A stretch of DNA of 64,000 nt, from positions 21,886,001-21,950,000 of the forward strand of contig CM120646.1 in assembly GCA_051362555.1 (NCBI GenBank), written 5' to 3'. The notes under the pieces are model-generated. The model saw nothing but the letters and a program-made list of their open reading frames with translations, did no database searches and had not been told where the DNA came from. Source of the stretch: Lingula anatina (lineage: Eukaryota > Animalia > Brachiopoda). The position numbers were made by a program, and so were the translations under genes. Positions within the stretch are counted from its first letter, which is position 1; the number at the start of each line of letters is the position of its first letter. Shown one piece after another: positions 1,540 through 54,537 of this stretch.

Positions 1540-1929
1540 CTTCCTTGCCAAGTTGTGATGACGCCATCAGTGTTACTCTACCCTCGTCTTACTCTGTACG
1601 CACTGGACACAGCGTCACACTGCAGTGTACATTTACTCCTTATGCAGTGGAGTACCAAGTGAAGTGGTCGTGGAATTCAGAGGAGTATGAACTAGTTATA
1701 GGTAACTTAACTGGTACACCTGCAATACGTCCCAATGGGGGTGTTCTACAGCCAGCATGGAATGGAAGGTTGTCATTCCAGTCTCCAGCCTCACTTGTCA
1801 TCAGTGGTGTCACTGCAGCAGATGCTGGGACCTACACATGTGGGGTGAAGATAACATTAACATACCCATCAACATGTTCACCAGCTAACAGTCGCTATTT
1901 TGCATCAGATACAACCCTCTCTATTACAG
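1540..1929 (+). CDS. IgSF exon E1: V-set Ig domain (follows a signal-peptide exon not seen in the window)
   Basis: Acceptor tcattccag|1540, donor acag|gtgaat, phase 1-1. Translation has SVTLQC...VKWSW...GRLSF...ASLVISGVTAADAGTYTCGV...TTLSIT. Confidence 0.9.
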
Positions 1930-2201
1930 GTGAATCCGACAGTTGTCAATGTTGCATATTCTTGTAAAATATTGAAAATGGATATTTTATATTGCTGTAA
2001 AGATACATGTAAGTGGAGCATGTAAACAAACCATATGTTATTCTACTGGGAATGAAAAAACAATTTTATAATAAACAGATTATGTAATATAACTGAGTAT
2101 GTTAATAACGTGGCACAAAAAATGTCAGAATATTATTTTCTCATCTGCTTCAGATGAATTCTTGTCACAATCCCATTTAAAGTTCAACAGCTTTGTTTTA
2201 G

Positions 2202-2468
2202 TTCCAGTTGGGGGTGTTTCTGTATCCCGTTCACGTGCCACAGGACATGATGTAACCAAGGGAGACACCGCATATCTGAGTTGTACGACAACATCAGGAT
2301 CGACACCCATAACATATACATGGCTCCTGAACAATACACCATTACAGCAGACTGGCAGGGAGTTGACAATCAGCAATATACAACCAAACCAAGCAGGACC
2401 ATACAGATGTAATGTCAGCAACACCATATCATGGCAACAGTCAGGAACATTCACATTTAATGTGTTGT
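2202..2468 (+). CDS. IgSF exon E2: I/C2-type Ig domain
   Basis: Acceptor ttttag|2202, donor t|gtaagt, phase 1-1. Translation GDTAYLSC...PITYTWLLNN...ELTISNIQPNQAGPYRCNVSN. Confidence 0.9.
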
Positions 2469-2852
2469 GTAAGTGTCTCTGAACAAAAATTGTCAACTTC
2501 GATTGATGGTTAACTGTTAGAATGATTTCTTTCAGTGAATTTAAACAATAAGTACATGTATATAGCCTTAAAGAAAGGGGATCGAATAATGAAATCTAGA
2601 GTTATTATACAAAGCAGACCCATGAAGGTGTAAAGCAATTAACATATACAGAGATTGCATTAAACGATTATGCATTAACCTGTAAAAAAAGGTAATATAA
2701 AGTAATACATTGAAACATAAATGGGTATATACTTTTAATCTCAGTGTCCATACTGACAGGTTACAACTCAGCACTACATGCAGTAGCTGTCCACTCCTCA
2801 TACAATTGTAAAAAGAGAACTGGTACATAAAGTGGTATTATATTTTCTTCAG

Positions 2853-3164
2853 ATGCCCCTGACAACTGGCAGAACCTACCTACACTGACAGGTTACAACT
2901 CAGCAGTAGACAAACTGGTCACTGGGGAGTCATCTGTGACCCTGACCTGTAGTGCACCTGGCGGGAATCCTTTAGCATCCTTAAGCTGGACTTCAGGGTG
3001 TCCAAGTGGTACAAGGAGTGATCAGTCCACCTCAAACACGTCAGAGATCAGACTTCAGTTTACAGTACAAACCAGTCACCATCAAACCACGTGTGGTTGT
3101 CGTGCTACACATGCACAGGGAACACCTTCATCTAGGGAGAGACAAGTCACCTTCTTTGTTATAC
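2853..3164 (+). CDS. IgSF exon E3: C2-set-like Ig domain
   Basis: Acceptor ttttcttcag|2853, donor c|gtacgt, phase 1-1. Translation YAPDNWQNLPTLTGY...VTLTCSAPGGNPLASLSW...HHQTTCGCRATH. Confidence 0.88.
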
Positions 3165-3455
3165 GTACGTAATATATTTTTTCGAATTTTGGTTAAGTGA
3201 CTTTTCTTGCTATATGTGAGTAATTGTTTGTATTCAGTAAATTTTATCATGAGATAAGATCAATAAAATACATTTGTTATTATCTTAAATATTAAGTGAA
3301 AATATAGCTTTCTGTCTTTTTAATTAGACTCAATACTCAGTTGTAAGTTCATGTATATGTACCGGTAATTGTCAGTGTTCGATATAAGTATGCTAGAAAC
3401 ATTTTTGTGATAGGTATGTTTATCAAATCTTTTATTTTTCTATCTAAACATCCAG

Positions 3456-3743
3456 ATCCCCCAAGAAGTGTGAGTATCACACCAAGTCCTCCATTACCGT
3501 GGTTGGCGACAGGACAGAACCCAACCACCAATGCCCAGCTGACATGTTCGGCTACTGGTGGTTATCCAACACCAACGTTGTCATGGCAACGTAACTCTGT
3601 GTCTGTACCAGGGTCAACAACATACACTTTCCAGTCTGTAAACATCAGTGAAAACCAAGTGGAATACAAGTGCCTGGCTTCAAATGAATACACTACAACA
3701 AAGGGAGTTACTGTTCAGAAGGCGCTACGCCCTGACGTTCAGT
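3456..3743 (+). CDS. IgSF exon E4: Ig domain
   Basis: Acceptor tccag|3456, donor t|gtaagt, phase 1-1. Translation PPRSVSITP...AQLTCSATGGYPTPTLSWQRN...VEYKCLASN...PDVQ. Confidence 0.9.
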
Positions 3744-4003
3744 GTAAGTATGTACAGTGCATGGTGTCAATTTGGCCTGGTGTTTTTTGGCATATCAGGG
3801 TGTGGACTGCCATAGTGATGTATGTAAAGATACTGTAATTAATTTGATTGGAAATAAATTTGGAAGAAGCTATTTCTACTTTCCTTACTAATTTGGTTTT
3901 TATATTTCATACATTCATATCTTCAAACATTATATAACTGTTTTCTCATTTATGCACATGAATTAGTATTATATAGTCGTTTTCATATTCTACATTTCCA
4001 TAG

Positions 4004-4267
4004 ACCACCCCATAGTTCAGGTCAGTGTCTCTCCCAGCAGTACCAGGGAGGTCAACGAGTCTGTTACTTTAATATGTACAGCAAACGGCAACCCAACTGT
4101 CACTTCCTATAGATGGCAGAAAGGTAGCTGGACAACAAGACAAGCTAACCATACTATACAACAACTGACCAAGTATGATACAGGACAGTACACCTGTAGT
4201 GTAACAGCCAACTCGGCCAGACATGGGGATCTTATCTCTACTGGGTATATTACTCTCACTGTACAAT
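4004..4267 (+). CDS. IgSF exon E5: I-set-like Ig domain (absent from the ORF track)
   Basis: Acceptor tttccatag|4004, donor t|gtaagt. Hand translation YHPIVQVSVSPSSTREVNESVTLICTANGNPTVTSYRWQKG...KYDTGQYTCSVTA...ITLTVQ. Confidence 0.9.
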
Positions 4268-4445
4268 GTAAGTACCTAGTTGGTTTAGGTCTATATGCAG
4301 CAAAAAGATTAAAATATACTAATAGATAAACATGTGCACGTTTTTTGCTCCAACTAAATATATAATTCATGAAAATATACCCTTTATGCCCATCCTAATA
4401 AACACTTGATTTTAACTTGCACAGCCTAAACCATCATAATTACTT

Positions 4446-4610
4446 AATATAGGTCTTTGTGGTGGGCAATTTAAATTGAGATACAATAATCATACCAAGT
4501 CATTTAGGGACAAGAAATATGCTGCAGATACTGAGTTATCGAAATACATTTGGAAATTAACGGAAAATAACACCCAGTATGACATTAGATGGGACATCAT
4601 AAAGAAATCA
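4446..4610 (+). mobile_element. Fragment of a Penelope-like element GIY-YIG endonuclease
   Basis: Translation (N)IGLCGGQFKLRYNNHTKSFRDKKYAADTELSKYIWKLTENNTQYDIRWDIIKK matches the typical YIG..FKxRYNNH..SF...TELSKYIWKL..W pattern of Penelope-like elements. Truncated on both sides. Confidence 0.75.
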
Positions 4611-4751
4611 TCAAAATTTGAAGAAACCCCCATTTTGGGCACTGCTTCCATGATGACCATTTAAGGAAAATCATGTCACTTACTGTTTTCAAACTTACAG
4701 GATAGAAACATGGGACTAAAATACAGCTTCAGTAGGCAATGCAGTCTGTTT

Positions 4752-4794
<43 letters not shown>

Positions 4795-5227
4795 AGTTAA
4801 ACAGTTTTTTGTGAAAATTTAATTTTTCACATATTGACATTTTCAAGGTGTGACTTTAAAGTTCCATGATCTTGAAGACTTTTGCTTTTCACATTTTCTG
4901 AATGTCCATGTTACTAATATTTTATTAATAACATTTGATTGTCATTATGCTGTTAAACATTATGTAATGTTGCATCAAAATTTGAAGAAACCCCTATTTT
5001 GGGCACTGCTCCTATGATGACCATTTAAGGGAAATCATGTCACTTACTGTTCTCAAACTTACAGGAAAGAAACATGGGTCTAACATACAGCTTCAATAGG
5101 CAACGCAGTCTGTTTGGTAAATTTTTCTGGCAATTTAACAGTTTTTTGTGAAAATTTAATTTTTCACTTATTTGCATCTTTATTTTCTGTTCTTTGTCTG
5201 TACATTTGACAGCTTTGCTGCCTTGTT
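4609..5227 (+). mobile_element. 5'-truncated HINE family 1 copy
   Basis: Near-identical to 18318-18924. Ends in tgtctgtacatttgacagctttgctgccttgtt. Confidence 0.85.
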
Positions 5228-5494
5228 AAAGTAAATATAAGATTCTTACTAGATACTTACTAATCAATAAATAACTTTTTAATCGACATGTGTTTTAACA
5301 GTTAAAATCCAATTAACTACTGTAGTCTAGTACTGCCAGCCAGTACATTGCATTGACTTTGGTTACAATTTTGGGCACTTTTGCGTTAGAAGTTTAGGTC
5401 ATCATATATATTTAAAGGGTCATTACAAAGAGACTGGACTGCCCTGTTACTTTTAACCTTGGTCTCATTGATGTGTTTGTGATTGTTTTTTCAG

Positions 5495-5833
5495 GTGCCT
5501 TTTCAATCGTAACGGTGACAACCGATCCACAAGTGAATGTGAGCAGAGTTGGAGAACAGGTAACATTGAGTTGCCGATATACATTTGACAATTCTACAGA
5601 TCCTGCTGCCATTAAATGGTATAAGGTGGATGTTGTAGATCCAATATATAGTAAAATTTCTACATTGCCAACCGGTACATATGGACCTGGTTACAATAAC
5701 AAACTGTTATCAAATGGATCCTCTATAACTTTTGTTTTCACAAATGCAACTGATGCTGGAACTTATAACTGCTCAGTAGAAAATTATAACACTGGAGAAA
5801 AGAACACATCACAGGTGTACATGATGATACAAG
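5495..5833 (+). CDS. IgSF exon E6: V-set-like Ig domain beginning with a signal-peptide-end-like segment (AFS|IVTV)
   Basis: Acceptor ttttttcag|5495, donor g|gtactg, phase 1-1. Translation GEQVTLSCRYTF...AIKWYK...TDAGTYNCSVEN, with many NxS/T sites. Confidence 0.9.
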
Positions 5834-6082
5834 GTACTGATATATTTTCATTACTTACACCGGTGCATTGATGATATCTTTGTGCACAGACACAATAGCT
5901 TCAACTTACACATTAAAAATTAATTAATAAAAATAAAGATACTAACTATAACGAGCATGCATGATTCTACAGTTTAATGGGGCAAGTTGATCTAGCTGTA
6001 TTGCATAATTGTATAACACATTTTGACCCATAATGATGATTTTTCTTGATTATTGTTTACTTTACTGATATATTTTCTTCAG

Positions 6083-6391
6083 TTGATCCTGACAGTATAT
6101 ATGTTCAGAGGAAAGATTCAGGGGATTTGGAAAAAGATGGTACCCTTAAACTATTTGTTTCATCCACACATGCAAGACCGCTTGTTAAGCATTCCTGTGA
6201 AATAGCTGGGGAACAATTAAGTGGAAGTCAACCATCATATAACCTGAGCAATCCAGTGTATGATCCACTATATGGATCTACAGATACACAGTTTGATATT
6301 AAAGTGAATACCGGGTACGATGGAGAGCAAGTCAAATGCTGTGTAACTGGCTCAAGAATCTGCAGCAACTTTACTTTCCCAAATATAAAAA
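6083..6391 (+). CDS. IgSF exon E7: divergent C2-set-like Ig domain
   Basis: Acceptor ttttcttcag|6083, donor a|gttagt, phase 1-1. Translation LEKDGTLKLFVSSTHARPLVKHSCEIAG...YDGEQVKCCVTG...FPNIK. Confidence 0.75.
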
Positions 6392-24690: not shown

Positions 24691-24803
24691 CAACAAATTT
24701 TGCCTGGTGGGTGCTGCTGCTTATTGTTGTTGGAGGTATAGCATTTATAACAGCAATCATTGGGATGATTATATGGCTTCACAAAAGAAGAGGAAGTGGC
24801 TAG
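24691..24803 (+). CDS. Transmembrane exon TMa ending in a stop codon (short cytoplasmic tail)
   Basis: Acceptor ttacttttag|24691, phase 1. Hand translation xTNFAWWVLLLIVVGGIAFITAIIGMIIWLHKRRGSG*: a hydrophobic run followed by a basic stop-transfer motif. Confidence 0.7.
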
Positions 24804-25706
24804 GATTAGTAAGAATTGAAGAATGTGGTTACCTTACTACAGTAACTGCTTAAGATGTGCGGTTTTGATGGAGGATATTGCTGATATACCTATAAAACGC
24901 ATTAGTTTATGGTGAAGATGACACACATGTAAATCAAAGGCAGTAATCTACCAAGTTTTTCTCAATTTCTTACATTACTCAATATTGTTAATTTTTTTTT
25001 TTCAATGTAAGGTTTTCAAGATTTGATCCTTGTACTAGTGCTGTGTATGTTTCTTCATTCAGATGTATGTCCTAGAAAGCTGATTTTCTAATGATGAGTT
25101 AGAACACCAATATACATGTAATCATGTTTTTAATTCATTAAGTTAAGGAAGTATTAAAGTGCAAAGTATCTGTATAGGTGCATATAAAAAGAACACTCCA
25201 TTTTGAACAGTGTTTTTGAATGACAGTATCACAAACAGATGGATAGTCACGTGTATAACCAGCAGTTACTTGATATGAAATTTGACCTATCATGATCAAT
25301 GTTACAATATTGCAAATGAAGATAAAAAAAGAGTGGAAATCATTTCAGCATTTTTTTAGGAGGGGGGGGGAGATGTCTAAGAACACAAATTTGTAATAAC
25401 AATTCATACTTTTATTACATCCACTTATGAGTTAATTGACAAACTAACGTAAAAAAAAAAGATGGGTAAAAAATTTAGACCATATATCCCCTTGACTCAT
25501 TTTAAGTGTTCAGACAGCACTTTCCATAATTTAAAAAAATGATGCATAGACTTTAAAACCACATAAAACGATCTTAGATTTCCATACTTGTCTACAATAA
25601 AGCAAAAAAAAAAAAAAAAAAAATACATCAGAATTAGTTATAGTATTTAAAATGAATGCTGTTAAGTTTCCATGGGTCCCATAGAGTTAATAAAACAGAG
25701 AGAGAG

Positions 25707-32968: not shown

Positions 32969-32999
<31 letters not shown>

Positions 33000-35881: not shown

Positions 35882-37333
35882 TTAGTAAACCTGTTATTTT
35901 ATATTTTTTAAAAAAGTGTCTAAAATGGAAATAAACTTATATCTTAACAGTTTGTCAGATGTTCAGAATCTCAGAATGTAGCAAATTGGACATTTAAAAT
36001 TGTTCTTTTGATATTTTCCTTTGTCAACAATTTTGTTAGTTGAGCATTTAAAAATTATAGTAAATTGATTATTTTGTTTTATGAAAAAAATGTTGAAAAT
36101 GGAAAGAAAATCATTTCAGTACAGTTATCTTTTGTTTACATTTTGGCATTTTGAAGGTGTGACTGAAATTCCATGGCCTTGAAGACCTTTCCATGTCACA
36201 TTTTCTGAATGTCCATAATACTTTTACTTTATTTCTAAAAATTGATGGCCATTATGCTGTTAAGCATTATGTAATATTGCATCAAAATTGAAGACAACCC
36301 TGTTTTGGGCACTGCCTCCATAGTGACCATTAAAGGAAAACCATGTCACTTGCTTTTCTCAAACTTACAGAAAAGTAGCATAGAACTAATTAATAGCTTC
36401 AGTTGGAAAACTTGGCTAATCGGTTAACTTTTCTGGAAATATTATAGTTTTTTATAAGAATTATAATTTTCACATATCGACATTTTCAAGGTGTGACTTT
36501 GAACTTCCATTGGCTTGAAGACCAGACCTTTGCTAGTCACATTTCCTGAATATCCATGATACTTTTACTTTATTATTTCAGTCACAATAACTCCTCATTT
36601 GGCAAAGAATTGAATTTTCCAGGAGTAAATGGCAATTTTCCCCTTCTTACCAATGGTCAACGACCCCATTCCTGCATTCAAAGTTAGTCCAGGTTTTTTT
36701 TCCTAAACGTTTGGTTTTTTGTTAAAATCTCTTAAGAGATTTTAACTGACAGAGCCCTCTCTGACACTGCATAGTCACGCGATATCTGGTGACCTACTTA
36801 AAACCGTGGGAAAAGCAGACAACAACAACACTATATAACAATAATATAAGGTTCATAACATATATTTGTCTTATTGCTCAAGATGCATTTATATCTACAA
36901 GGTGTGCAGTTCTGGGCTTTTCATTATCCGACGCTCTGTACAAAAACTCGCAACTTATGACTGAGGATTGCATCACACGTCTGCTTTCTTATGCTGCCAT
37001 ATGTTATTTTGGTCTCGAATGAACTCGAGAATCCGCATGACACCCCAACGTCATTGGCAACAGATGCCTTGACAACCGGGAAGAAAGGCATTGAAAGCCC
37101 TTTTGACAAGCACAGATTATAGTTTTATTACAATAACAGCTGTTTTAGTGGTAAAATGCAATATAATATATTTCCATGCATTGTTTTCAATGTATTTCTT
37201 GCGAAATTTTGAATCTCAAAGGAGGAGTTATTATTGCTTTAAAAATTGGTCATTATGCTGTTAAGCATAATGTTATATTGCATAAAAGTTGAAGAAAACC
37301 TTATTTGGACACTGCTGCCAGGATGACCATTAA

Positions 37334-37555
37334 AACCCCCTTTACACTGGACGGCGTCCTTTCTGCGTCCTTTGTGTGACCATGAAATTGGCATTGCTGT
37401 GGTCGTAAAAAGGAGGCACAAGCATCACTTTGGTTGCAGAATGAATGCTCAATGATCGGCCAGTTGTTGGCACATAATATATTATTATTTTTAACTCTTA
37501 AAGTGGGGCCGCACTTCGGGAAGCAGAAAGGACGCCATCCAGTGTAAAGGGGGCT
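37334..37555. mobile_element. PIF/Harbinger-like MITE
   Basis: TAA|aaccccctttacactggacggcgtcctttctgc ... gcagaaaggacgccatccagtgtaaagggggct|TAA. Confidence 0.82.
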
Positions 37556-38551
37556 TAAGGGAAAACCATGTTACTTATGATACTAAAACTTACTGAAAAG
37601 TTTCATAGGACTGAAGTGCAGCTGGTGTTGGAAAATCAGTGCAATTGTTTTCTGTTTTGGAAGCAGTGCAGTTCTATAGAGTGCTATATGGTGCTACTGT
37701 ATATGGATGGTTGTCAATGTGTAATTGTCCCTTGGGTAATCACTAGCTAGATTAAGGGCTATTATGTCACTTGCCTTATTAACTTTCCAGTGGCCACTAA
37801 ATGAGATTACATAAAAAAAACGTTGAGATTTCCCTGTAAAGTCCCATAGGTTTAGCTTTCTTAACTGTGTCACGTAATTAGGAATCAGTGATAATTATGC
37901 AGGTAAATGTTGTTTAATATTGCAAACAAGTTTACAAAAGAAAAAATTTTGTGTAACACCAACATTAATGCTATAGATGAATAACAGTGCCTTATTATTC
38001 TCAAACTCAATGGGGTTATTCATATCATGTTAATACAGCTAGATTAAAAGTTTGAATAGCAGCTTCATTGGAATTTTTTGTTATGTTTTATTTTAATTTT
38101 TTTTTTTTGATTATTTTTTTCAAACGCTAGCATCTTCAAGATGTGACTTTTAACTACCATTCACCAGAAGTTGTGTACATTTTCTGTATTTCCACATGAG
38201 CATTTGTATTGGTTTTTATGTCTTTAAACATTATGTAATATTATTTTATGCACTGTCATCATTTTTCACATATTGGGATTTTCATTATGTGAATCGAACT
38301 CTCACATTTGGTCCTGAAACTGTAATCTTAATGACCATCTTACCTGTTGTGCATGATGAAATTTTAGTGTTGATTGACTGTGCTGTTATAAGCATTATTT
38401 ATTATTGTATCAAAATTGACAAAATGACCTATTTTCTGCATCTTCATTTTCTGTTTTTTGTCTGTACATTTGACAGCTTTGCTGCCTTGTTTTTCATTGC
38501 ATTGACAATGCCATTTTGAAGTAAAGATTAGGATCTGCATTATTAATATAG

Positions 38552-38800
38552 GTTATGCAGCAATAGATGAGATTTCAAATGATACCCAGTTGCAAGTAGG
38601 AGATGCCTTTGCATTGGTCTGCAATGTATCCGGGAATCCTCCACCAAATGTGACGTGGGTGAAGGATGGCACTGTAAAGTCTACCACATATCGACTGCAA
38701 CTACTGCATGTTACTGAGCAAGATGCAGGTTGCTATATGTGCATAACAACTATTGATAGTGCAGTCACTGCAAATAGAACAGTGTGTATACATGTTGAAG
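38552..38800 (+). CDS. IgSF exon E8: I-set Ig domain
   Basis: Acceptor ttaatatag|38552, donor g|gtaaaa, phase 1-1. Translation YAAIDEISNDTQLQVGDAFALVCNVSGNPPPNVTWVKDG...EQDAGCYMC...IHVE. Confidence 0.88.
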
Positions 38801-39826
38801 GTAAAATAAAAGACGTTGATGGATGCAATTTACGTTACAACTTAATAAGTATCCTAACCTAGCAAGTCTCTGTCTCTCTTTTGAGTTAATCTTATGTAAC
38901 TCTGTAACTTCAAACTACTTGTTTTAGACACATGCTCTTAGTATCAGTGCCTTTATGTTTATCTGAATATTGATAGCCTCTAGGTCAAAATCATTATATA
39001 GTTTATAAACTATAACTTGCTTATTTCATTGCTGCAGTTGTCTTGACCAATCAAACTTTTCATCCCATTTTGTGATCTGGCTTTCATTTTTCTCTTATTC
39101 TCCTTGAATATTTTTGTCACTTGATTACACTGCAGTGACTTTGCACTTACTATGTTTTGTTCATTTGTATTTCCTTCTTCACCTCCTACTAAGGAAGTCA
39201 TAGATTAACATGTTTGTGGTGGTATGAGTTTATTGTACAGTGATAAATTCATTGGAATACATAGCCTAGCCAATAAAATGGGGAAGTGTTACTACCTGTT
39301 GTCCTAGATCATGACATTCAGGAAAAGAATAGTTCAAATGATATCTACATGTCTTATCTCAGCAGCAATGTGTTATGCTTCCTGCTAGGAGTCTGTGTAT
39401 TCCATTTCTTTTGGCTTACATATTCTCAGCTCTTTCTAGGTTTCTCTTACGTTTGTTTTTAAAACATAATTTTTGAAAAATCATATTAAAGTTGGATTTA
39501 GTACTTTTAAAATTGTTTAGATTGTTTTAATTTGTATCGGAGAGAACTGAAGTAACTCAATATTGCAATTGGCAACTGTGATTCACAACAACATGCAGTT
39601 ATATTGTGACTTTTTTACTGTTAACTGAAGTTGCCTAAGTCATCACATATTTCAACAATAACAATTCATGTTGTTGGAAAGATAAAAATTTTAATTTTTC
39701 ACATAGACTGTTTCTCTTGAATATATATACTGTGATACTGATACAGGATAAATTGTATATTAAGATTTTGATTATTAATGAAGCTTATAGAAAATCACCA
39801 AATTTGCAATGTTCCTTTCTTTTCAG

Positions 39827-39937
39827 GTGTGAATGATGGTCTGACTACAGGACAGATTGTGGGAATAGTAATCGCAGTTATTGTAGTAGCTGTTATTGGT
39901 ATTGTTATTGTTGCCATCGTCATATATAAGAAACCGA
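39827..39937 (+). CDS. Transmembrane exon TMb
   Basis: Acceptor ttcttttcag|39827, donor a|gtaagt, phase 1-1. Translation GVNDGLTTGQIVGIVIAVIVVAVIGIVIVAIVIYKKP, a typical type-I TM segment. Confidence 0.9.
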
Positions 39938-40660
39938 GTAAGTTGTTAAAAGGTAAAGTTGAACACTTAATTAATGGTGCAAAAAGCACTTAACCATTTT
40001 AGTTAACGTCATTGTGCATTTTGTTATATTTGTTATGTCTGGATAAAAAAATACTAGGCAAGGGAAAGTTCTGATAAAAATGCTTTTTGAATAAATTAAC
40101 TTTTCCTACTTTAATTTGTAATACTAAAAGTAGCATGTTGATCAGATTAAATATTCTAAAAACAGACATATCACACTTAAATGTAATTTGTATTTGATTA
40201 TATTATTATATATAAGCAAAATATATGCAGTGTTACTCATTATTAAATTGCAAATCATCTGTTTACAAATAAGGCATTACATCCTATTTTACCGACACTA
40301 AGACATTTATTACACATAGATAAACTAAGTTTATTTCTGCTTAAATACCGATGGCATCTATTGGCAGCGCACAGTGCAGTTTTAAATGTTGCTTATTTCA
40401 TGATCGATGCCAAATTAATATGGAATGATAATGTATAAATATGTCTAAATCTTTCAAAAATAGCAGTGCGAATAGCTGACTATGAATTTTTGTAAATGTG
40501 GAATGCAATGTCATTGAGTGTTTCATTGATAAGCTATTTCCCAAGTACAAGAATGAGTGTATTTTCAGGAAGTAACAAAATGGATGAATCTTTCAATACC
40601 ACTAGGTTGTATGAAACTTGTGTTGCTCTGTTGCTTCAAAAGGCCTTTCCTGTTAACTTA

Positions 40661-43287
40661 TTATGTACAGACACAGATGTGTCTGTACATATTGCCATCA
40701 CCTGCGTCTGTCGTCGCCGATGCCGTCGCCGATGCCGATGCCGTCGCCGATGCCGTGCACTTTCCTTGTAAACACGATAAGTGGAGGACAGTTTTACTTT
40801 TTGGCTTTATATTTACAGAGCTGATGAATATTCATAAAACGCAGGTCAAGTTCGAAAATCAGCATGATCGGGCCATTATTGTAGAACTTATGCTGTTTTT
40901 TCACTTTTCAGCATATATGCAACCCTGTAAACACATTTTAAGGAACACCGTTAGGCCTGTTGTCATGAAACTCACAGGAGTAATCAATCTTACTAAAACG
41001 CAGGTCAAGTTCGAAAATCGGCATGATCGGGCCATTACTTTAGAAGTTATGCTGTTTTTTCACATTTCCTCAGATTCAATTCTTAGGCATGTTAACAGTC
41101 TTATTATTTTACTAATAAGATACATAAAAGTGTTTGTTTGACATTTCCTGAATCTTTACAACATTGTTAGTTGATTATGTAAAAATGATGGTGAACTTGT
41201 TATCGTGTATTGTGTAATAAAGTGTCAAAAATGGAAATAAACTCATATCATTGCAGTTTGTCAGATGCAATCATTCACTATGTTCAGAATCTCAGGATGG
41301 AGGAAATTGGACATTTAACACTGTTGTATTGATATTTTTCCCATCTCATCAATTTTCTTAGTTGATCGTATAAAAATGGCAGTAACCTGTTAATTTTGTT
41401 TATGTTAAAAAAATTGTTAAAAATAGAAAAAAAACATTTCAGAACAGTGCTGTCTTGTTTACATTTTGGCATTTTCAAGTTGTGACTTTGAAGTTCCATG
41501 GGCCTGAAGACCTTTGCTAGTCACATTTTCTGAATATCCATGATACTAATATTTTATTATTAAAAATTGATGGTCATTAAGCTGTTTAACATTATGTAAT
41601 ATTGCATCAAAATTTGAAAAAAACTTATTTTGGGCACTGCTCCCATGATGACCATTTAAGAAAAACCATGTCACTTACTGTTCTCAAACAGTACAGTAAA
41701 TATGTACAGATGTGTCTGTACATATTGCCATCACCTGCGTCTGTCGTGGCTGGCGTTGCCATCACTGTCACTGTCACTGTCGCCGTGCACTTTCATTGTA
41801 AATGCGATAAGTGGAAGGCAGTTTTACTTTTTGGCTGTATATTTACAGAGCTGATGAATATCCATAAAATGTAGGTCAAGTCCGAAAATCAGCATGATCG
41901 GGCCATTATTGTAGAACTTATGCTGTTTTTTCACTTTTCAGCATATATGCAACACTGTAAACACATTTCAAGGAAAACCGTTAGGCCTGTTGTCATGAAA
42001 CTCATAGGAGTAATCAATCTTACTATAACGCAGGTCAAGTTAGAAAATAGGCATGATCGGGCCACTATTTTAGTTATGCTTTTTTTTTCACTTTTCAGCA
42101 TATATGCAACACTGTAAACACAAAATAAGAAAAACAGATAGGCCAATTGTCAGTAAACTCACAGGAGTGGTCATTCCTGCTAAAACGCAGGTTGAGTTTA
42201 AAAATCAGCTTAATTGGACCATTATTTTGAAGAAATGCTGTTTTTTCACATTTCCTCAGATTTAATTCTTAGGCATGTTAACATGCATGTTTCATTATTT
42301 AATTAGTAAGATACGTAAAAGTGTTTGTTTGGCATTTCCTGCATCTTTACAACATTATTAGTTGATTATGTAAAAATGATGGTAAACTTGTTATCGTGTA
42401 TTGTGTAATAAAGTTTCAAAAAATGGAAATAAACTCATATCATTGCAGTTTGTCAGATTCAATCATTGACATTCACTATGTTCAGAATCTCAGAATGGAA
42501 GAAATTGGACATTTAACACTGCTCTATTGATATTTTTTTCCATCTTATCAATTTTCTTAGTTGATCATATAAAAACGGCAGTAAACTGTTAATTTTGTTT
42601 TATGTTAAAAATTGTTAAAAATGGAAAAAAAAAATTCAGAACAGTGTTGTCTTGTTTACATTTTGGCATTTTCAAGTTGTGACTTTGAAGTTCCATGGGC
42701 CTGAAGACCTTTGCTAGTAACATTTTCTGAATATCCATAATACTCATCATTATGCTGTTAAACATTATGTAATATTGCATCAAAATTTGAAAAAAAAAAA
42801 AACTATTTTGGGCACTGCCCCCATGATGACCATTTAAGAAAAACCATGTCACTTACTGTTCTCAAACTTACAGGAAAGAAACATGGGACTAAAATACAGC
42901 TTCAGTAGGCAATGCAGTCTGTTTGGTAATTCTTACTGCCAGTTTAACAGTTTTTTTGTGAAAATTTAATTTTTCACATATTGGCATTTTCAAGGTGTAA
43001 CTTTGAAGTTCCACGGGCTTGAAGACCCATGCTAGTCACATTTTCTGAAAATCCATGTATATTTTATTATTAAAAATTGACGGTCATTATGCTGTTAACC
43101 ATTATGTAATATTGCATCAGAATAGAAGAAAACACAATTTTGGGTGCTGCTTGAGCATAATTAAAATTTGATGTTGAATTTGCAGTTTAACATAATGTAC
43201 TTTTGCATCAGAATTGACAGTAGCCTATTTTGTGCATAGTTATTTCCTGTTTTTTGTCTGTACATTTGACAGCTTTGCTGCCTTGTT
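40661..43287 (+). mobile_element. HINE family 1 copy with a second internal head near 41700
   Basis: Termini as above. The paralogous intron at 46860-46893 lacks it, which defines the insertion site. Confidence 0.88.
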
Positions 43288-43303
43288 TTTAAAATTCTCT
43301 CAG

Positions 43304-43481
43304 GTCAAAGATCTTGCCCTTCTAGTGAAACCGTTATTCTTGAACCAACCGAAAAAGAAATAGAGAAAAATGTTGGTGACATTTTGAAGGTGATTGCTAA
43401 TGTGAAAGACAAAACAGCCAACCAGCAAATTGAGGTCTCCTGGTTTGATCCCAATGGAAGAAAAATTAACTCTGATTCAAG
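43304..43481 (+). CDS. First half of post-TM Ig-like domain, copy 1
   Basis: Acceptor ttctctcag|43304, donor ag|gtacag, phase 1-2. Translation QRSCPSSETVILEPTEKEIEKNVGDILKVIANVKDKTANQQIEVSWFDPNGRKINSDS. Length and splice sites are conserved in the paralog at 46894. Confidence 0.82.
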
Positions 43482-43783
43482 GTACAGTGTAAAAATAAGA
43501 ACAAATGCATAAGCTTCTTTAAATAAATTGATACATACGGTAGAACTGATAACTATGTAATATGGTGTGTGTGTGTGTGGAGGGGGGGGGGGGGCAGTTG
43601 TCTGAGCTGTGATTCACCTGGGTGCCATTATTAAGTTAGATATGTTGATCCAGACTTTTTTGTTTAATTGATAGGACTGTTATGAAGGTATTCATAACCA
43701 AGCATTTTATTATAACAGAAACAAACTTTATAAGCTATGCCATTGTTAGTTTTGTCAAAACATGATGTGTTGTGATCTTTCAG

Positions 43784-43926
43784 TAAATCAGGTATATCTG
43801 GAAAAGATGGCTGTTTGACTATCCAAACCATCAAGAAGGAGCATGGAGGGGAATATATTTGTAGATGGAAGAGATGTGTGGAGGATTCAAGTGGAGAAAT
43901 GTCTTTTGTTTTAAAGGTTGCCTCTG
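43784..43926 (+). CDS. Second half of post-TM Ig-like domain, copy 1
   Basis: Acceptor tctttcag|43784, donor g|gtatgt, phase 2-1. Translation SKSGISGKDGCLTIQTIKKEHGGEYICRWKRCVEDSSGEMSFVLKVAS. Confidence 0.82.
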
Positions 43927-44004
43927 GTATGTAATTCTCTCAAACTTTCTCTTTATGTAAGAGATAATGTTTACCTACAACCTTATGATTATCAGTGGAA
44001 TTAT

Positions 44005-46468
44005 TTGTACCACCAGCGTTAGCGCTGGCGGTACACATGTTTTTAGTCCCGTCCGGTCCGTTCTGCCGGCTCTGTGGCCATGTTACCGTTACCGCTTCTC
44101 CTCCTAGACGGTAAGGGCCTCCATACTCATCTCTTGGATTTAGGTCATCTATAATCTCAAATCGTTCCACGTAAAATTTGGGCTTTGTCAGTATTGGGGT
44201 CTAGGTGTGGCACTCATTGTAATGCACCCTTGTCCAAAAATGGCAAAATTAAAAGCTAATTATCTACCCTACGGGAGGAAGTATGGGAAAAATTTCTACA
44301 GGCGGCTTTCCAAAAGTCATATGTGTAGATTTCAAATATGCCCTTGGATTTGACCTTTGACCTTTATTTCAAGGTCAAACGGGCCAAAATTTTCAAAAAA
44401 ATGAATTTTTTTACGAAAAAAAATTTATTTGCACTGTTATTCAGACACCACACTGACTTAACCAGTAATATTTATGGAAAGTGTTACCCTTGGTGTCATC
44501 TATCATCTCTGTAAATTTGGGGTCAATCGGTGCATTTTCACGGGTGTAGCAGCTATAAGATACTGAAACTGAAAACTGTCTCTAATTCGGGAACCGTTAA
44601 TGCTAGAGACCCATTCTTTTTTGCATTTTGTAGAGCATGTAAAGCCCAACACTGAAAGTGGTCTCCGTTTTTTTGTATTCCATACGGTTTTCGAGTTACG
44701 CTGTATCAAAAAGTACATATTGGTGGTGAAAGCAAAATGTGCAGTACGGTAATGGATAATAAATTTTGAACTCTGGAAAAATAAAACATAAGGCTTGGCG
44801 AGGCAGACAACCTGTGGTTAAAAATGACATTATTTCATCAAATTTGAACATCTGGAACTTCAGAGCACCTCCCATTTCAAGAATTTTGACCAAAATGACC
44901 TTTTCTTTATTTTAATTAATTTTTTCTGTAGGAAATTTATGGCACATTAAGGTAACTCCGAAATTATAACATTTAGTCCCTTAAATATATCTCCAAAATT
45001 GGCAGAGATAGGTCCATACTTACTATTGAAGTTGAATAGGAAGTCATATACTGGCAATCTTACTGTGACCTTGAAATTGACCTTTGACCTACTTTTCACC
45101 ATGAACTGAACTCTGCTAATTTCTGTCTCTTTTAACTCCAAACCTGGCAGAGATAGGTCCATAGTTACTATTGAAGTTGAAAAGGAAGTCATATACTGGC
45201 AATCTAAATGTGACCTTGAAATTGACCTTTGACCTACTTTTCACCATGAACTGAACTTTGCAAATTTTGCTTCCCTTATATCTCCAAAACTGGCAGAGAT
45301 AGGTCCATAGTTACTATTGAAGTTGAATAGGAAGTCATATACTGGTAATCTTACTGTGACCTTGAAATTGACCTTTGACCTACTTTTCACCATGAACTGA
45401 ACTTTGCAAATTTTGCTTCCCTTATATCTCCAAAACTGGCAGAGATAGGTCCTTAGTTACTATTGAAGTTGAATAGAAAGTCATATACTGGCAATCTAAA
45501 TGTGACCTTGAAATTGACCTTTGACCTACTTTTCACCATGAACTGAACTTTGCAAATTTTGCTTCCCTTATATCTCCAAAACTGGCAGAGATAGGTCCAT
45601 AGTTACTATTGAAGTTGAATAGGAAGTCATATACTGGCAATCTTACTGTGACCTTGAAATTGACCTTTGACCTATTTTTCACCATGAACTGAACTTTGCA
45701 AATTTTGCTTCCCTTATATCTCCAAAACTGGCAGAGATAGGTCCATAGTTACTATTGAAGTTGAATAGGAAGTCATATACTGGCAATCTTACTGTGACCT
45801 TGAAATTGACCTTTGACCTACTTTTCACCATGAACTGAACTTTGCAAATTTTGCTTCCCTTCTATCTCCAAAACTGGTAGAGATAGGCCCATAGTTACTA
45901 TTGAACTTGAATAGGAAGTCATATACTGGCAATCTAAATGTGACCTTGAAATTGACCTTTGACCTACTTTACACCATAAACTGAACTTTGCAACTTTTTA
46001 ATGCTTTGCAACTTTTTAATGCTTTTATTTTCAGAGATACGACCATAGTTACTATTGAATTTGAATAGAAAGTCATTAGAGGCAATTAACTGTGACCTTT
46101 GACCTTCTTTTCACCATGAACTGAACTTTGCAAATTTTGCTTCCATTTTATCTCCAAAACTGGCAGAGAAAAGTCCATAGTTACTATTGAACTTGAATAG
46201 GAAGACATATACTGGCAATCTTACTGTGACCTTGAAATTGAACTTTGACCTACCTTACGATGAACTTTAATTTGATTGTACCATTTTTAGTTATATATAT
46301 TTTTTGCATATTTTGAAAATTCTTGTTGATTGCATTTTTACAGCTTGTCAAGCACAAGACTGGTGGCTGTGTCCCTTATTTTGTGTATGTGGGGGTCTGT
46401 ACGAATGCGCTTGCTCCAGCTGGTGGTACAATATTCGGAGGCGGTATCGCCTCTCTGATCATCTAGTT
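44005..46468 (+). mobile_element. HINE family 2, second copy with about 9 units of 146 bp
   Basis: Same termini as 20932-24483. Absent from the paralogous intron near 47560 (gaattatt|ttccaat), no TSD. Confidence 0.9.
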
Positions 46469-46893
46469 TTCAATAAAAATTTAAGTGTGAGACACCCTGT
46501 GCGATACAGGAGCAGTGATATCATATTGTTAAGTAGTTATGTTATGGTCTTTTGACTCCCTGACAAGGTCCATTGTTAGTACCTTTAATTTATGTTGAAA
46601 CTAGCCAAAGCAGTAAATTTTAAATACTGGTTATTTTGTGACAATCTAAAAAAAATACAAACTAGCAGTGCAAATAGCTAATTATAGATTTTATTTAATG
46701 CTGAATGTCACAGTGTGTTTCATTTTAAGTAGATAATCTCTGAAACTTCACAAGTGCAAGGATTAGTTATTTGTTAGGAGTGCACAAAATGAATTAATCT
46801 TTCAACACTACTAGGTTGTATGAAACTTGTTTTGCTCTGTTGCTTCCTGACACAGCGGTCTTTTCTGTTAACTTCTTTTTTACATTATCCCAG

Positions 46894-47071
46894 GTAATCG
46901 ATCTTGCTCCTGTAGTGAAACCCTTATTCTTCAACCAAGCGGAAAAGAAATAGAGAAAGATGTTGGTGACACTTTGAAGGTGATTGCAACTGTGAAAGAC
47001 AAAACAACCAACCAGCAAATGGAGGTCTCCTGGTTTGATCCCAGAGGAAGGGCAATAAACTCTGATTCAAG
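46894..47071 (+). CDS. First half of post-TM Ig-like domain, copy 2
   Basis: Acceptor atcccag|46894, donor ag|gtaaat. 178 nt like copy 1. Translation NRSCSCSETLILQPSGKEIEKDVGDTLKVIATVKDKTTNQQMEVSWFDPRGRAINSDS. Confidence 0.82.
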
Positions 47072-47348
47072 GTAAATTGTGAAAAAAAAAAATAAATAAA
47101 TGAGCTTCTTAAAATAAATTGATACATTGAACTGATAACTATGTACATATGCTAGGGGGGGTACAGTTGTTTGTGATTTACCTGGATACCATTAGTAAGA
47201 TATGTTGAACCAGATTTTTTTGTTTAATAGATAGGACTGTTATTGAGTTATTCATCACCAAGCATATTATTATAACAGAAACATCATTAACTTTATAAGC
47301 TATGCCATTTTAGTTTTGCCTAAACATTGATGTGCTGTGATCTTTCAG

Positions 47349-47491
47349 TAAATCAGGTTTATCTGGAGAGGATGGCTGTTTGACTATCCAAACCATCAAG
47401 AAAGAGCATGGAGGGAAATATATTTGTAGATGGGAGAGATGTGTGGAGGATCCAAGAGGAGAAATGTCTTTTGATTTAAAGGTTGCCTCTG
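47349..47491 (+). CDS. Second half of post-TM Ig-like domain, copy 2
   Basis: Acceptor tctttcag|47349, donor g|gtatgt. 143 nt like copy 1. Translation SKSGLSGEDGCLTIQTIKKEHGGKYICRWERCVEDPRGEMSFDLKVAS. Confidence 0.82.
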
Positions 47492-47725
47492 GTATGTAAT
47501 TATCTTTATGTAAGAGATAGTGTGTACCTATAACCTTATGATTATCTATTCAGTGGAATTATTTTCCAATAACAATTAAAGTGCAGGTAACCCAGTGCAA
47601 TATAAGAGCAGGAATATCATATTATTATAAAATAGTATGTTAAATAACAGTGATTTAGAAGTACCACTATTTTGCTACATACAAATGGTTTTTTTGATAA
47701 AAGTTCCTTACATGGCATTAGTCTT

Positions 47726-49558
47726 CACTAGTGGGCTTGATTTGATCTTAAAGTGCAATTTAAGATTCCAAATAGTCTTATGTGATCTTGAGTAAGACCA
47801 TTTCTGCACTGACAGCCAATTAAGTTGTCTCGCCTTACACATTCTTCTATAGTGAGCAGAGGTGACCTCTTTTGTGAGGAGAGGCATCCCCCATTGTGAG
47901 GGGAGAAAACTGCTTGACATCTTAAGGGGTCTAGGATATTAACGAAAAAGTCCAAAACTAATGCAGCTAATCAAATTTCCTATTAACTAAAGGATGTGGT
48001 CTAGCAAGCAAAGCAATTTTCCAAAGTTTGTAGTCACAGTGTAACACGAGTGACGTAATATCAGCATTTTGGGGCTAAAATTGTCATTTTTTAAATCAAG
48101 ATTTTCTCTTAAACAAAAAGCCCTATAAATACGATTGAAATAGCTAAAGGTTAGCACAAAAACCAGTAAACTTAGTCAGGATTTTCTCTTATTATCTTTA
48201 CTTTTGATTTTATTTTGATAAAACGTGAATTTTACGAAATATATATAGACCTTCCACTTTCAGTTTTAATAACTTCAAAAATAAAAGGTCAATCAAAAAT
48301 TCAAGACTCTGTTGACTAGATATTATACTGAAACACAGACACATCAAATTTCATATCAATCTGACAGTTAAAGAATGAGATATGGGGATTGAAGTTTAGG
48401 CTATGTTATCAATTTTCAAAGCTGAGAAATCGCTCATAAACCATTTGGCTCAGGTAATTGGGCTAATTTAGCAAATTAATTGCACCTCCACCTGTTATCA
48501 TCTTATTGATCGGGAAGGTCTATAAACCATTATGTGGGTTGTTTGTTTCTATCTAGATGCCAGAAAATCTTACTTTTGTACGCAAACTTATTCACACCAT
48601 GAAAGCCGCTCTTCCCTGAGAAATGATTGACAGCTGAGTAGGCCTACCTACTCTCACTGACGTAATTAATCATACTTGTGCCTGACGCAGTAGAAGTCTG
48701 TGCACTGTCTAGGAAGTGTCTAAGGAAGGGCTAACAAACAAAAAGAAAGTTACTTGAGGTGCAAGCAGAGGACAATGCCACCCGTCGTGCGTGGACGCCA
48801 CTCTACACACCAAGACATGAAAATGGAGAAAGCAAAGAAAGAATTACTCCAAGAAATGGCCAAATGTGGGTACGTATCAGCCACGATGCCAGAGAGTGCC
48901 AAGACCATAATATGCTAGTTTGAAAATGTTTTGGGTGGCAATATTATTCATAAACTTGATTGCTGTTACAATTTTTTTGTGAATAAAATGATTGCCTCAC
49001 GATTTTTTCTGACAACCCCAGATGTTGTACGAATTCTCAGCAGCTCAAGTGTGATCTTGAGTCTTTCCCTAGATGTGATTGAGACGCTAAGGGAGAAAAT
49101 TTAATATATTGTTAACAATGTAATGGAAACAATATAATCTCAGTTTAGCTGACATAAGACTTATTAGCTGCCAGTGCACGCGTAACAGCTTAAGACAAGT
49201 TAGACAACCATTCTTGCCCCGCCCCCCATAGTAACGGTGCTTGACAACGGAGGCCGAGCCTAGAGGCCACGGACAGGTAGAAAAACTAGTCCAAATGTAT
49301 ATTTTTAGTCCGTGTTGCAAAAATATAACTTAATTGAGTATTAGATTCAATATTGATTATTTCTAACGTATAAAAAAACTGAAAATCGAGTTTTAGACAT
49401 ATTTGTAATATCCTTGACCCCTTAAGTAGATGTTAGATCATTTGTGATCTTAAAAGCAGATACAGTCCATTTTAAGACTACTGCTATTATGATTAAGACC
49501 GTGTTAGATTATTTGTGATCTTAAATTGCACTTTAAGATCAAATCCAGCCCACTAGTG
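47726..49558. mobile_element. CACTA-like element, copy 2 (opposite orientation), hosting a Kolobok-like element
   Basis: CACTAGTGGGC termini, TSD CTT. Confidence 0.85.
47926..49421. mobile_element. Kolobok-like non-autonomous element
   Basis: TTAA|ggggtctaggatatta ... taatatccttgacccc|TTAA. A single TTAA sits at the empty site in CACTA copy 3 (about 53379). Confidence 0.8.
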
Positions 49559-50343
49559 CTTATAAGGTCAAATTTAGTAAATTGTCAATTCAAAATGCCA
49601 ATGAGCTTGCTATAATCTATTTTTCACAACCTGCAGCTTTTTAAATGTGTAAGGTGTGATTATTTTCATTTTGAATACAACAAAATTTCCCTGGTTTAGG
49701 TGTGAATTAATTAGCACATTTTTTTTCAGGTTTGCCATATTTAACATGTTCCAATAGAAGGCTTAACATGTTATATTTTCTCATTTGCCTGGTGTTGTTT
49801 AAGCATAAAAAAACTGAAATAGATTTTGTATTCAGTCTCATATGTTGATGCACCTCTCTCAGTTTTGGTCAGAAATATTTTTTAAGTAAAATAAGAAAAT
49901 GGTTCAAAAATTCTGTCATTTTTGTCTTCATTGTGTGCTACTTACTCAGACTTGATTGATTCAATGTCTTTCTAAACTCTTTCTTTCTTTGATCAAATTG
50001 TACATTCCTACTGGTACCATATCTGCTCATAGCACAGTTACATCTAAACTAACAACTACTAGTAAGTACATCATGCACCCATTGTACATACTTGAGTTGC
50101 ATGGCCAGTATGAGCTTTGAGGTGGAAATGGCAAATAGGTTCATGATGATGATGAAAATTAATGCATTAAATAGCCAAAAACCAAGATGGCTACAGTGAA
50201 TTTATTTAATCAAGATGGAAAACATGTAGACAAGATTATCAAATGTATTAATGGTATGATTTTAATTTTCACTTATTGTAGAATTATATGGGCAACATAC
50301 ATGCACTACATGTGTATTACTCTGTCAGCATTTTAAATCTATA

Positions 50344-52957: not shown

Positions 52958-53575
52958 AAGGCTTTGGACTCAAAGTTTTTTTTTTTTTTTTTTTTAATTA
53001 AAATGATGGCTTTGTGAAAGACCTGCAAAGTATGTAATGCTGAACATGTCTGGCTATTATCAGTTTTAATACAAAATGTGAAGATATACCATAAGTCATA
53101 TGTATGTACAAAATGAGCAAAGGTAAATTATGGTCATCTTGTATTGTGGCTGTTTCCATAGCTTTATTTAGATATGCCTGTCCATTTGTCTATATTATAT
53201 AGGTAAATAAACAGGTATCAGGAATATCCCCCCCCCCCCGCCCCGCACTAGTGGGCTGGATATGGTCTTAAAGTGCAATTTAAGATAACTAGTTATCTTA
53301 TGCGATCTTAATCATTACAGCAGTAGTCTTAAAATGGACTGAATCTGCTTTTAAGTTCAAAAGTGGTCTAACATCTACTTAAATGGTCAAGCAGTTTCCT
53401 CCCCTCATAATGGGGGACACCTCCCCTCACAACAGAGGACACCTCTGCTCTCAATAGGAGAATGTGTAAGGGGAGACAACTAAATTGGCTGTTAGACTAG
53501 AAATGGTCTTAGACCCCATTTCCAGAGATTAGATCTCTGGGTGTTCACGCCTTACAGCTTGTAGTAGGCGGGACG

Positions 53576-53706
53576 TGTAATGTTACGAGCGGAGGAGCGC
53601 ACACCAGACGACACGTTGTTAATAATTACTCAACTGCAGCACACAGCCGCGCTTTATTCTAATTGGATAATATTACATAATGTGCATGACGCACCACTAT
53701 GTGACA
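53576..53706 (-). repeat. 3' LTR of the Gypsy element
   Basis: Identical to 63217-63347. Preceded on the minus strand by a polypurine tract (plus strand 53707-53719, t/c-run/tttt). Confidence 0.95.
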
Positions 53707-54494
53707 TCCCCCCCCTTTTAAAGGAAAAACTAATTAACATACAGTAGTAATAAAAATTAAGTTTCCGTTGTACGACGTTTTAAAAACGTCAGAAACGTTT
53801 TAATCCCTATCCTATGAATAGAAGGGGGCGGACAAACAATGGAGAGCCGTCTAATCCCTTCAAAATTCGAACGCCAAAACACAATAGTTTAGACGTAATA
53901 ACACACAATACCTTAGGCGAGTGAACCCCATGACGCCTGTTTCTGTGGTCCAGCGCGAGCGGGACAATCCGCTGTGACCAGGTGTAATTAACAGCAGGAT
54001 ACATCAGCCAGAAGGTGCCTATTGTTTGTTGCGGCGATAAGATTATAGCTTTAAGATGCTAGAACCCATGCTAACGCGTGCCACTCCCGTGGCCACCTAT
54101 CCTTTTGTTCACTAGCTTGGCACGCGCAGCAGATCATGTATTAATTAATTGTTGCAAGAAAACTGCTAGTTTAATTTAGTATCAGTTATTTTATTCAATA
54201 TGAAGTGTTCTGTGGTCAAAAATTGAATTTGATATACATGTATCAGCAACGTACATCAGCATGATCAACAAATCACCCCGTCTCAAAAAGTTTAAAGATG
54301 CTCCGTACACAAATTTCCATCATCGCTTCCTGTGTAAAAATAGATAACTGTTTAGAAATAACAAAGAAAGAAACATTATTAAAACAATTTTTTCACATTA
54401 CAAGCTGACGTGTTGCCTCAATTACTACATTAAGTTACATTTTATATAAAATAAGAGAGCGAATCCGTCAAAGGATAATAATAGAAAGTCTTAA

Positions 54495-54537
<43 letters not shown>

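What the first reader, a model, noticed from the sequence alone, without database searches (positions are those of the whole stretch)
39827..47491. Ig domains downstream of a type-I TM exon: candidate receptor with tandem cytoplasmic Ig domains
Seen: the TM exon ends YKKP with a strong phase-1 donor. The next recognisable exons (43304/43784 and 46894/47349) start in phase 1 and encode two Ig-like domains (VG-x-x-L-x-V, VSWFDPNG, LTI, HGGEYIC). I found no signal-peptide exon between them. Known: VSWFDPNG resembles NCAM Ig1 (ISWFSPNGEKL), NCAM-type domains are split over two exons, and Ig domains of type-I receptors are normally extracellular. Both copies have Ala at the B-strand Cys position (VIANV, VIATV), so the canonical disulfide is lost, as expected in reducing cytosol. 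Inference: this is an IgSF receptor with Ig domains on both sides of the membrane, possibly built by exon shuffling.
Basis: partly seen in the sequence, partly recalled or inferred. Interest (0 to 1): 0.82.

Follow-up and report, generated by a model that had tools for sequence, protein, structure and literature searches.

The report
Brachiopod Ig module behind skippable anchor
In a likely brachiopod (Lingula) cell-surface gene, an antibody-like domain whose close relatives are expressed and spliced lies behind a membrane-anchor exon that most transcripts likely skip, so the domain would sit outside the cell in most products and inside it in a likely minor form, but the splice that would put it inside was not seen.

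Summary
The exons are real. A 111-nt phase 1-1 membrane exon (TMb) is followed, with no leader exon, by two tandem two-exon Ig-like units (A, B) lacking the B-strand Cys. A and B differ by 27 indels in non-coding DNA and 0 in exons, so both frames were kept. RNA shows A/B-type exons spliced (51 and 59 reads in two runs) in the runs that express the upstream Ig exon and TMb, and TMb is not read through. But the TMb-to-Ig junction was not among the 15 of 230 joints shown, only 1-2 reads per run reach the TMb donor, and TMb depth (at most 9x and 4x) is far below the Ig module (40-80x). Reads match neither copy exactly, so the tandem pair is unsupported by RNA. Best reading: TMb is an in-frame cassette; most transcripts skip it, and a minor form likely carries one cytoplasmic Ig domain. 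Charge-rich, sequon-poor composition fits that; kept extra cysteines do not. The scan noted a post-membrane Ig layout before in shark and skate B7-H6 genes (other DNA), not at this locus. Topology is open.

The parts
38552..38800 (+). Ig38: canonical I-set Ig exon, phase 1-1, upstream of TMb
   Evidence: Pfam Ig_3 E 7e-13; about 21x (X11) and 15x (X10) over its last 106 nt, 0 in X4 and X7
39827..39937 (+). TMb: 111-nt phase 1-1 transmembrane exon, skippable in frame; read-through would end at a stop near 39990
   Evidence: sequence; at most 8.6x and 3.7x; 11 aligned bases in the next 177-nt bin in each run
40670..43287 (.). about 2.6-kb dispersed repeat inserted about 16 nt upstream of the A1 acceptor
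   Evidence: 40457-40669 aligns with B's upstream intron 46659-46884; many copies in the window
43304..43481 (+). A1: first half of Ig-like unit A (Ala at B-strand Cys, C-strand Trp), phase 1-2
   Evidence: related reads about 51x and 40x
43784..43926 (+). A2: second half of unit A (E-strand LTI, F-strand YIC), phase 2-1
   Evidence: joint 43481>43784 in 51 (X11), 59 (X10), 2 (X4), 0 (X7) reads
44007..46465 (.). inserted element with 8.7 copies of a 146-bp unit between A and B
46894..47071 (+). B1: first half of Ig-like unit B; strongest acceptor of the 12 exons scored
47349..47491 (+). B2: second half of unit B; phase-1 donor, read-through stops after 2 codons
   Evidence: 93.7% identical to A2; Atlas Ig/I-set clusters at 0.90-0.92
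1540..6391 (+). seven upstream phase-1 exons E1-E7 (six clear Ig domains) that likely belong to the same gene or cluster
   Evidence: Pfam hits for 6 of 7; E1 61% identical to Lingula anatina XP_013390183.1; their splicing to Ig38 not tested
24691..24810 (+). TMa: terminal transmembrane exon with a stop, a likely alternative 3' end
   Evidence: X11 depth about 6.5x in the two 664-nt bins over it and its 3' flank

Best explanation
This is a fast-changing, likely Lingula, Ig-receptor locus in which an expressed two-exon Ig-like module lies behind a membrane exon that is likely an in-frame cassette, so most transcripts would skip the anchor and a minor form would carry the module inside the cell. 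Shown: exons, frames, splicing inside the module, co-expression with the upstream Ig exon, lack of TMb read-through, low TMb depth. Inferred: that TMb, when included, joins the next expressed phase-1 acceptor (A1 or B1); that the skipping form is secreted or anchored by an exon further on; that the inside form uses the charged, disulfide-less Ig as a docking surface for an adaptor or cytoskeletal protein, with the cysteines 4-6 residues into the module as possible lipid-attachment sites. The module differs in make-up from the other Ig exons (split in two exons, 30% charged), so it likely came in by exon shuffling and then duplicated as a unit of about 1.1 kb.
For: TMb is 111 nt, phase 1-1; Ig38-TMb-module and Ig38-module both read open. 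In X11 TMb has up to 8.6x but only 11 bases in the next bin, so it is not terminal there. No other convincing phase-1 exon was found in 47565-59200. Ig38, TMb and A/B-type exons are on in X10 and X11, off in X7; X4 has 2-3 module reads only. Depths Ig38 21/15, TMb at most 8.6/3.7, A1 51/40, A2 at most 80/56. Frame kept: 27 indels in 541 non-coding nt, 0 in 321 exon nt, binomial p 3e-6 (gap count depends on penalties). Charged residues 30-31% against 13% (106 of 799) in the eight upstream exons, p 1e-5 to 4e-5; sequons 0 and 1 against 2.5 expected.
Against: Neither the TMb-to-module nor the Ig38-to-module junction was displayed (15 of 230 joints shown, all with 54 or more reads). Coverage thins at the 3' end of TMb, and the 11 bases may be one unspliced read per run. 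Reads differ from the window by at least 6-7% in these exons, so they may come from other alleles or paralogous loci, and low TMb depth could be a mapping loss. Three non-canonical cysteines are kept in both copies, and an allele class fixed in X10 has Trp-to-Cys with Cys-to-Ser three residues apart (40/40 and 50/50 reads), which fits a disulfide. dN/dS between A and B is 0.89 (Sd 7, Nd 24), no sign of amino-acid constraint.
Confidence: 0.4

Rival explanations
1. The module is never joined to TMb. It is an extracellular Ig of another isoform or gene, fed by Ig38, an upstream exon or a distant leader, while TMb joins a tail exon beyond the window or ends by read-through in this haplotype.
For: Only 1-2 reads per run reach the TMb donor, against about 97 bases expected if all 32 X11 reads at 43320 came from TMb (11 seen). 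N-terminal Cys plus FG-loop Cys is also seen in E1 and in the first domain of XP_013390183.1, which follows a hydrophobic N-terminus. Read-through gives a 17-residue basic tail and an AATAAA at 40090. Much of the DNA after B is mobile, so real exons may lie past 64000.
Against: No read-through coverage after TMb although one read maps at about 40150-40290; no leader between TMb and A1; no other tail exon found; composition unlike the extracellular exons.
Confidence: 0.33
2. One reading: TMb is constitutive and the module, once or twice, is the cytoplasmic tail; low TMb depth is an artefact of divergent alleles and of junction reads being lost because their module part fits copy A poorly.
For: In X11 one Ig38 read class (about 8 of 22 reads at 38759-38765) matches the TMb depth of about 8; the module to Ig38 depth ratio is about 3 in both runs; X10 reads are lost at the 5' end of A1 (depth 2 at 43320), so loss near this junction is real. 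Composition.
Against: X10 has intron-containing reads that map across the TMb acceptor, so a mappable TMb exists there, yet at most about 2 further partial reads against Ig38 depth 12-19. X10 shows one sequence class at all 22 displayed module sites, which does not fit two copies 10% apart.
Confidence: 0.2
3. The reads come from paralogous loci; the window's A and B are silent or decaying duplicates.
For: No X10 or X11 read class equals A; dN/dS 0.89; a 2.6-kb repeat sits 16 nt from the A1 acceptor; no database protein holds A1, B1 or Ig38.
Against: Zero exon indels against 16 expected and no stops; 2-3 X4 reads carry A's letters and 2 span the A1-A2 joint; Ig38 shows similar divergence, as expected for alleles of one locus.
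Confidence: 0.07

Closest known systems
Lingula anatina XP_013390183.1 ('pregnancy-specific beta-1-glycoprotein 8', automatic name)
   Same: Its V domain is 61% identical to E1 and its repeated constant-type domains closely match E2; one domain per repeat, multiplied in tandem.
   Different: The model has no membrane segment and nothing like units A or B, so it does not tell the topology.
NCAM Ig1 (PDB 2ncm, 5aea)
   Same: The C-strand SWF-PNG motif; a domain split over two exons (NCAM exon layout recalled, not checked).
   Different: E 0.3 only; NCAM Ig1 keeps the B-F disulfide and is N-terminal and extracellular; no FnIII exon was recognised in the window.
AjNLR-new of Apostichopus japonicus (PMC13133943; abstract and 8 passages read)
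   Same: An invertebrate membrane receptor reported with an intracellular Ig domain that binds actin and recruits Fidgetin: a model for what an inside Ig could do.
   Different: Its Ig lies between two membrane segments and its outer part is a NACHT domain; no homology was tested; here Ig would be on both sides of one span.
B7-H6-like genes of sharks, skates and amphibians with post-membrane C1 Ig domains
   Same: Ig - single span - Ig layout, with loss of canonical cysteines in the inner domains.
   Different: Vertebrate B7 family with C1-set chains said to be conserved across taxa; here an I-set-like, two-exon module with no relative found outside the locus and an unseen junction.
Soluble isoforms of Ig receptors made by in-frame loss of the membrane exon (general knowledge, recalled; one search found 0 papers with my 5 terms; tail-less Dscam is mentioned in a PMC11999971 passage)
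   Same: A symmetrical membrane exon whose use decides between anchored and released product.
   Different: Here the part behind the anchor is itself a folded Ig-like domain, so skipping would move it across the membrane.

Membership tests
Ig-superfamily domain (I-set-like) | C-strand Trp, E-strand LxI, F-strand YxC in register | tested here: met
   alignment with 13 Ig domains; PDB hits of the second half; Atlas
Ig-superfamily domain (I-set-like) | B-strand Cys and B-F disulfide | tested here: not met
   Ala in both copies; a non-canonical member at best
Ig-superfamily domain (I-set-like) | profile match above a curated cut-off | tested here: inconclusive
   halves only: Pfam Ig models E 0.01-0.17 for second halves, none for first halves; local profile above 200 of 200 shuffles
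Ig-superfamily domain (I-set-like) | beta-sandwich fold of the spliced domain | not testable with these tools
   the folding tool takes unspliced window sequence only; no model was made
NCAM / fasciclin II family | significant similarity to NCAM and a 5 Ig + 2 FnIII layout | tested here: not met
   E 0.3; no FnIII family among Pfam hits of the 14 exon translations
single-span receptor with cytoplasmic Ig | membrane exon joined to the Ig exon in RNA | tested here: inconclusive
   not among 15 of 230 joints shown; 1-2 reads per run reach the donor
single-span receptor with cytoplasmic Ig | open frame, no leader or second span between anchor and Ig | tested here: met
single-span receptor with cytoplasmic Ig | membrane exon is not terminal | tested here: met
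   X11: up to 8.6x on the exon, 11 bases in the next bin; one run, few reads
single-span receptor with cytoplasmic Ig | cytoplasmic location of the domain in cells | not testable with these tools
   needs a topology experiment
receptor with a skippable membrane exon | membrane exon symmetrical and a multiple of 3 | tested here: met
   111 nt, phase 1-1
receptor with a skippable membrane exon | skip junction seen in RNA | tested here: inconclusive
   depth dip at TMb only; joint not displayed

The most novel reading that the evidence does not exclude
A lophotrochozoan single-span receptor carries Ig domains on both sides of the membrane, and one cassette exon flips the same shuffled-in, disulfide-less Ig module between the cytoplasm and the outside, giving a signalling receptor and a released decoy from one polymorphic locus.
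Probability: 0.4. Interest if true: 0.72.

Novelty: new variant of a known kind. Interest (0 to 1): 0.47.

Why it matters
Ig domains of single-span receptors are outside the cell almost by rule. A confirmed inside Ig in a brachiopod would be an independent origin of that layout, next to a sea-cucumber case in print and B7-H6-like cases in this scan's notes, and would show how exon shuffling can give a receptor a new tail. A splice switch that moves one domain across the membrane is directly testable with one RT-PCR. If the junction fails, this is an ordinary alternative Ig exon pair in a polymorphic cluster.

Tried and rejected
No whole genome is held, so paralogues could not be counted. Homologue searches found nothing for A1 (0 of 13 candidates, longer proteins only) or Ig38 (0 of 12, longer only). 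The A1/B1 profile against 1.84 billion proteins gave 2 hits at E 2e-4, both unrelated repeat proteins by inspection. Atlas for A1: best 0.85, a lead only. The first read lay (24500-44400; X3, X6, X9, X11) was swamped by repeats; all 15 of 385 joints shown were repeat-derived. A higher share filter in the second lay did not clear them. Seven of the nine same-species-label runs were laid, 6-30% of each; X5, X8 and the two soil runs with small shares (0.05-0.06) were not. Nothing past 44400 was laid, so B itself and its downstream partner have no direct RNA evidence. E7 seems to lack the B-strand Cys too, which would be an extracellular control, but its Ig nature was not significant (0 Pfam families, 23 of 200 shuffles as good), so I do not count it. 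TMa and TMb are not detectably related (score 39, shuffle maximum 42). The leader of XP_013390183.1 has no match in the window (best E 3.9). Read-through at B2 could not be excluded or shown. Splice scores come from an approximate consensus matrix of my own. Literature: 0 papers for 'cytoplasmic immunoglobulin domain' + transmembrane + invertebrate, 1 for 'intracellular Ig domain' + 2 terms, 0 for B7-H6 + 4 terms; some searches were seen as listings only and showed nothing on this locus. Subscription papers, including any Lingula immune-gene survey, are not covered; no supplements were read.

Full report
Observation. TMb is 39827-39937. Units A (43304-43481, 43784-43926) and B (46894-47071, 47349-47491) each form a 106-residue open frame in phases 1-2-1. 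Aligned with 13 Ig domains they have the C-strand Trp, the E-strand LTI and the F-strand YIC, and Ala at the B-strand Cys. They beat 200 of 200 shuffles on a local Ig profile (B narrowly). The first half's best PDB hit is NCAM Ig1 at E 0.3; the second half hits DSCAM, CD79a and contactins. No leader-type exon was found between TMb and A1 or between A and B.

Setting. The window holds seven phase-1 exons at 1540-6391, six of them clear Ig domains, a terminal membrane exon TMa at about 24691-24810, an Ig exon Ig38 at 38552-38800, then TMb, A and B. E1 is 61% identical to Lingula anatina XP_013390183.1, and E2 closely matches that protein's repeats. The animal is therefore likely Lingula; unreviewed notes on the same genome say so too. 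No database protein holds A1, B1 or Ig38 (limited searches).

Origin of A and B. They are a tandem duplicate of about 1.1 kb that carries no leader. A 2.6-kb repeat landed about 16 nt upstream of the A1 acceptor, and a 2.5-kb element with a 146-bp array lies between the copies. Exon identity (87.6%, 93.7%) is no higher than intron identity (86-96%), and dN/dS is 0.89. But non-coding parts differ by 27 indel events in 541 aligned nt and exons by 0 in 321 (p 3e-6; the count depends on gap penalties). Both frames were therefore likely translated while the copies diverged. Unlike the other Ig exons, the module is split in two and is 30-31% charged against 13%, which suggests a separate origin (inference).

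RNA. Nine runs carried the same species label; seven were laid, 6-30% of each. In one search the A1-A2 joint (GT..AG) has 51 reads in X11, 59 in X10, 2 in X4 and 0 in X7. Depth per exon base (X11/X10) is 21/15 on Ig38, at most 8.6/3.7 on TMb, 51/40 on A1 and at most 80/56 on A2. Ig38 and TMb are 0 in X4 and X7. After the TMb donor only 11 aligned bases fall in the next 177-nt bin in each run, so TMb is not read through, but it also means only 1-2 reads reach the donor; about 97 bases would be expected in X11 if all 32 reads at 43320 came from TMb (a rough model). In X10 one read of each direction runs from the intron into TMb, leaving about two partial reads. The decisive joints are not visible: 15 of 230 are shown, each with 54 or more reads, 14 of them from repeats.

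Which copy is expressed cannot be said. At 22 displayed sites the reads differ from A; 12 carry B's letter (11 of them in 97% or more of reads in both runs) and 10 are new. The other 19 of 31 A/B differences are not displayed. X10 shows one class, X11 two. The reads look like alleles or paralogues related to both copies, and give no support for two modules in one transcript. Two to three X4 reads carry A's letters. Mapping loss is real (X10 depth 2 at 43320), so the TMb dip could be partly an artefact.

Inside or outside. For inside: open frame, nearest expressed acceptor, no other tail exon found to 59200, high charge, 0-1 sequons against 2.5 expected (weak, P 0.08 and 0.28). For outside: low TMb use; three extra cysteines kept; an N-terminal and FG-loop Cys pair like that of E1 and of the Lingula protein's first domain; and a read class with Trp-to-Cys and Cys-to-Ser three residues apart. 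Loss of the B-strand Cys also occurs in extracellular Ig domains (recalled), so it does not decide.

Mechanism. TMb is 111 nt and phase 1-1, and both the including and the skipping chains read open. The model that fits most observations is a cassette anchor: skipping gives a released or otherwise anchored protein with the module outside; inclusion gives a minor receptor with one module inside, acting as a docking surface. Confidence 0.40. Rivals: never joined to TMb 0.33; constitutive inside tail 0.20; silent copies 0.07. The chance that some TMb-to-module isoform exists is about 0.55-0.6; that it has two modules, about 0.25.

Comparison. It is not NCAM (E 0.3, no FnIII seen). An intracellular Ig in an invertebrate membrane receptor is in print for AjNLR-new, which binds actin and Fidgetin (PMC13133943, abstract and passages). 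This scan's notes describe post-membrane Ig chains in shark and skate B7-H6 genes (not checked). Searches showed no paper on this locus or on an Ig-span-Ig receptor in lophotrochozoans; the library lacks most subscription papers.

Verdict. Real, frame-conserved, with expressed relatives; topology unproven; tandem claim unsupported by RNA. New variant of a known kind, interest 0.47.

Noticed in passing
window 24691-25740: TMa is a terminal membrane exon with a short basic tail; X11 covers it and about 900 nt of 3' flank at about 6.5x per bin, X9 and X6 do not. Likely an alternative 3' end of the E1-E7 gene.
   Followed up: partly
window 38716-38768: 6 of the 7 displayed read differences in Ig38 change the amino acid; the locus may be under diversifying selection. 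Only displayed rows were counted.
   Followed up: partly
window 6083-6391: E7 is an open phase 1-1 exon with Val where the B-strand Cys is expected and four other cysteines; Ig nature not significant.
   Followed up: partly
window 20115-20360: Open 82-codon phase-0 frame between an acceptor and a strong donor, with Cys, Trp and Cys spaced like an Ig but no significant profile score; perhaps a decayed exon.
   Followed up: partly
window 33139-35883: Element bounded by an 18-bp inverted repeat, inserted in a dispersed repeat, with a minus-strand donor at 35760 and acceptor near 35493 and low opposite-strand reads in X3.
   Followed up: no
window 44007-46465 and about 20935-24480: Two copies of an element with an internal 146-bp tandem array; resembles Helentron-derived satellite carriers of bivalves (recalled).
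   Followed up: no
window 59721-63146 (-), 63217-63347 and 53576-53706: Intact 1142-codon Ty3/gypsy-type ORF (protease, RT, RNase H, integrase). A 131-bp stretch beside it is 100% identical to one 9.6 kb upstream, so much of the DNA after B may be a recent insertion.
   Followed up: no
window 49730-49850 and 56923-57029: A phase-1 acceptor (score 5.1) opening a 38-codon frame with a short hydrophobic run and basic residues, and a Tyr-rich frame with a poor acceptor; weak candidates for exons after B or TMb, not covered by any lay.
   Followed up: partly
window 40658-43290: The dispersed repeat family is heavily represented in poly(A) RNA (depth of hundreds to over 1000 in all laid runs).
   Followed up: no
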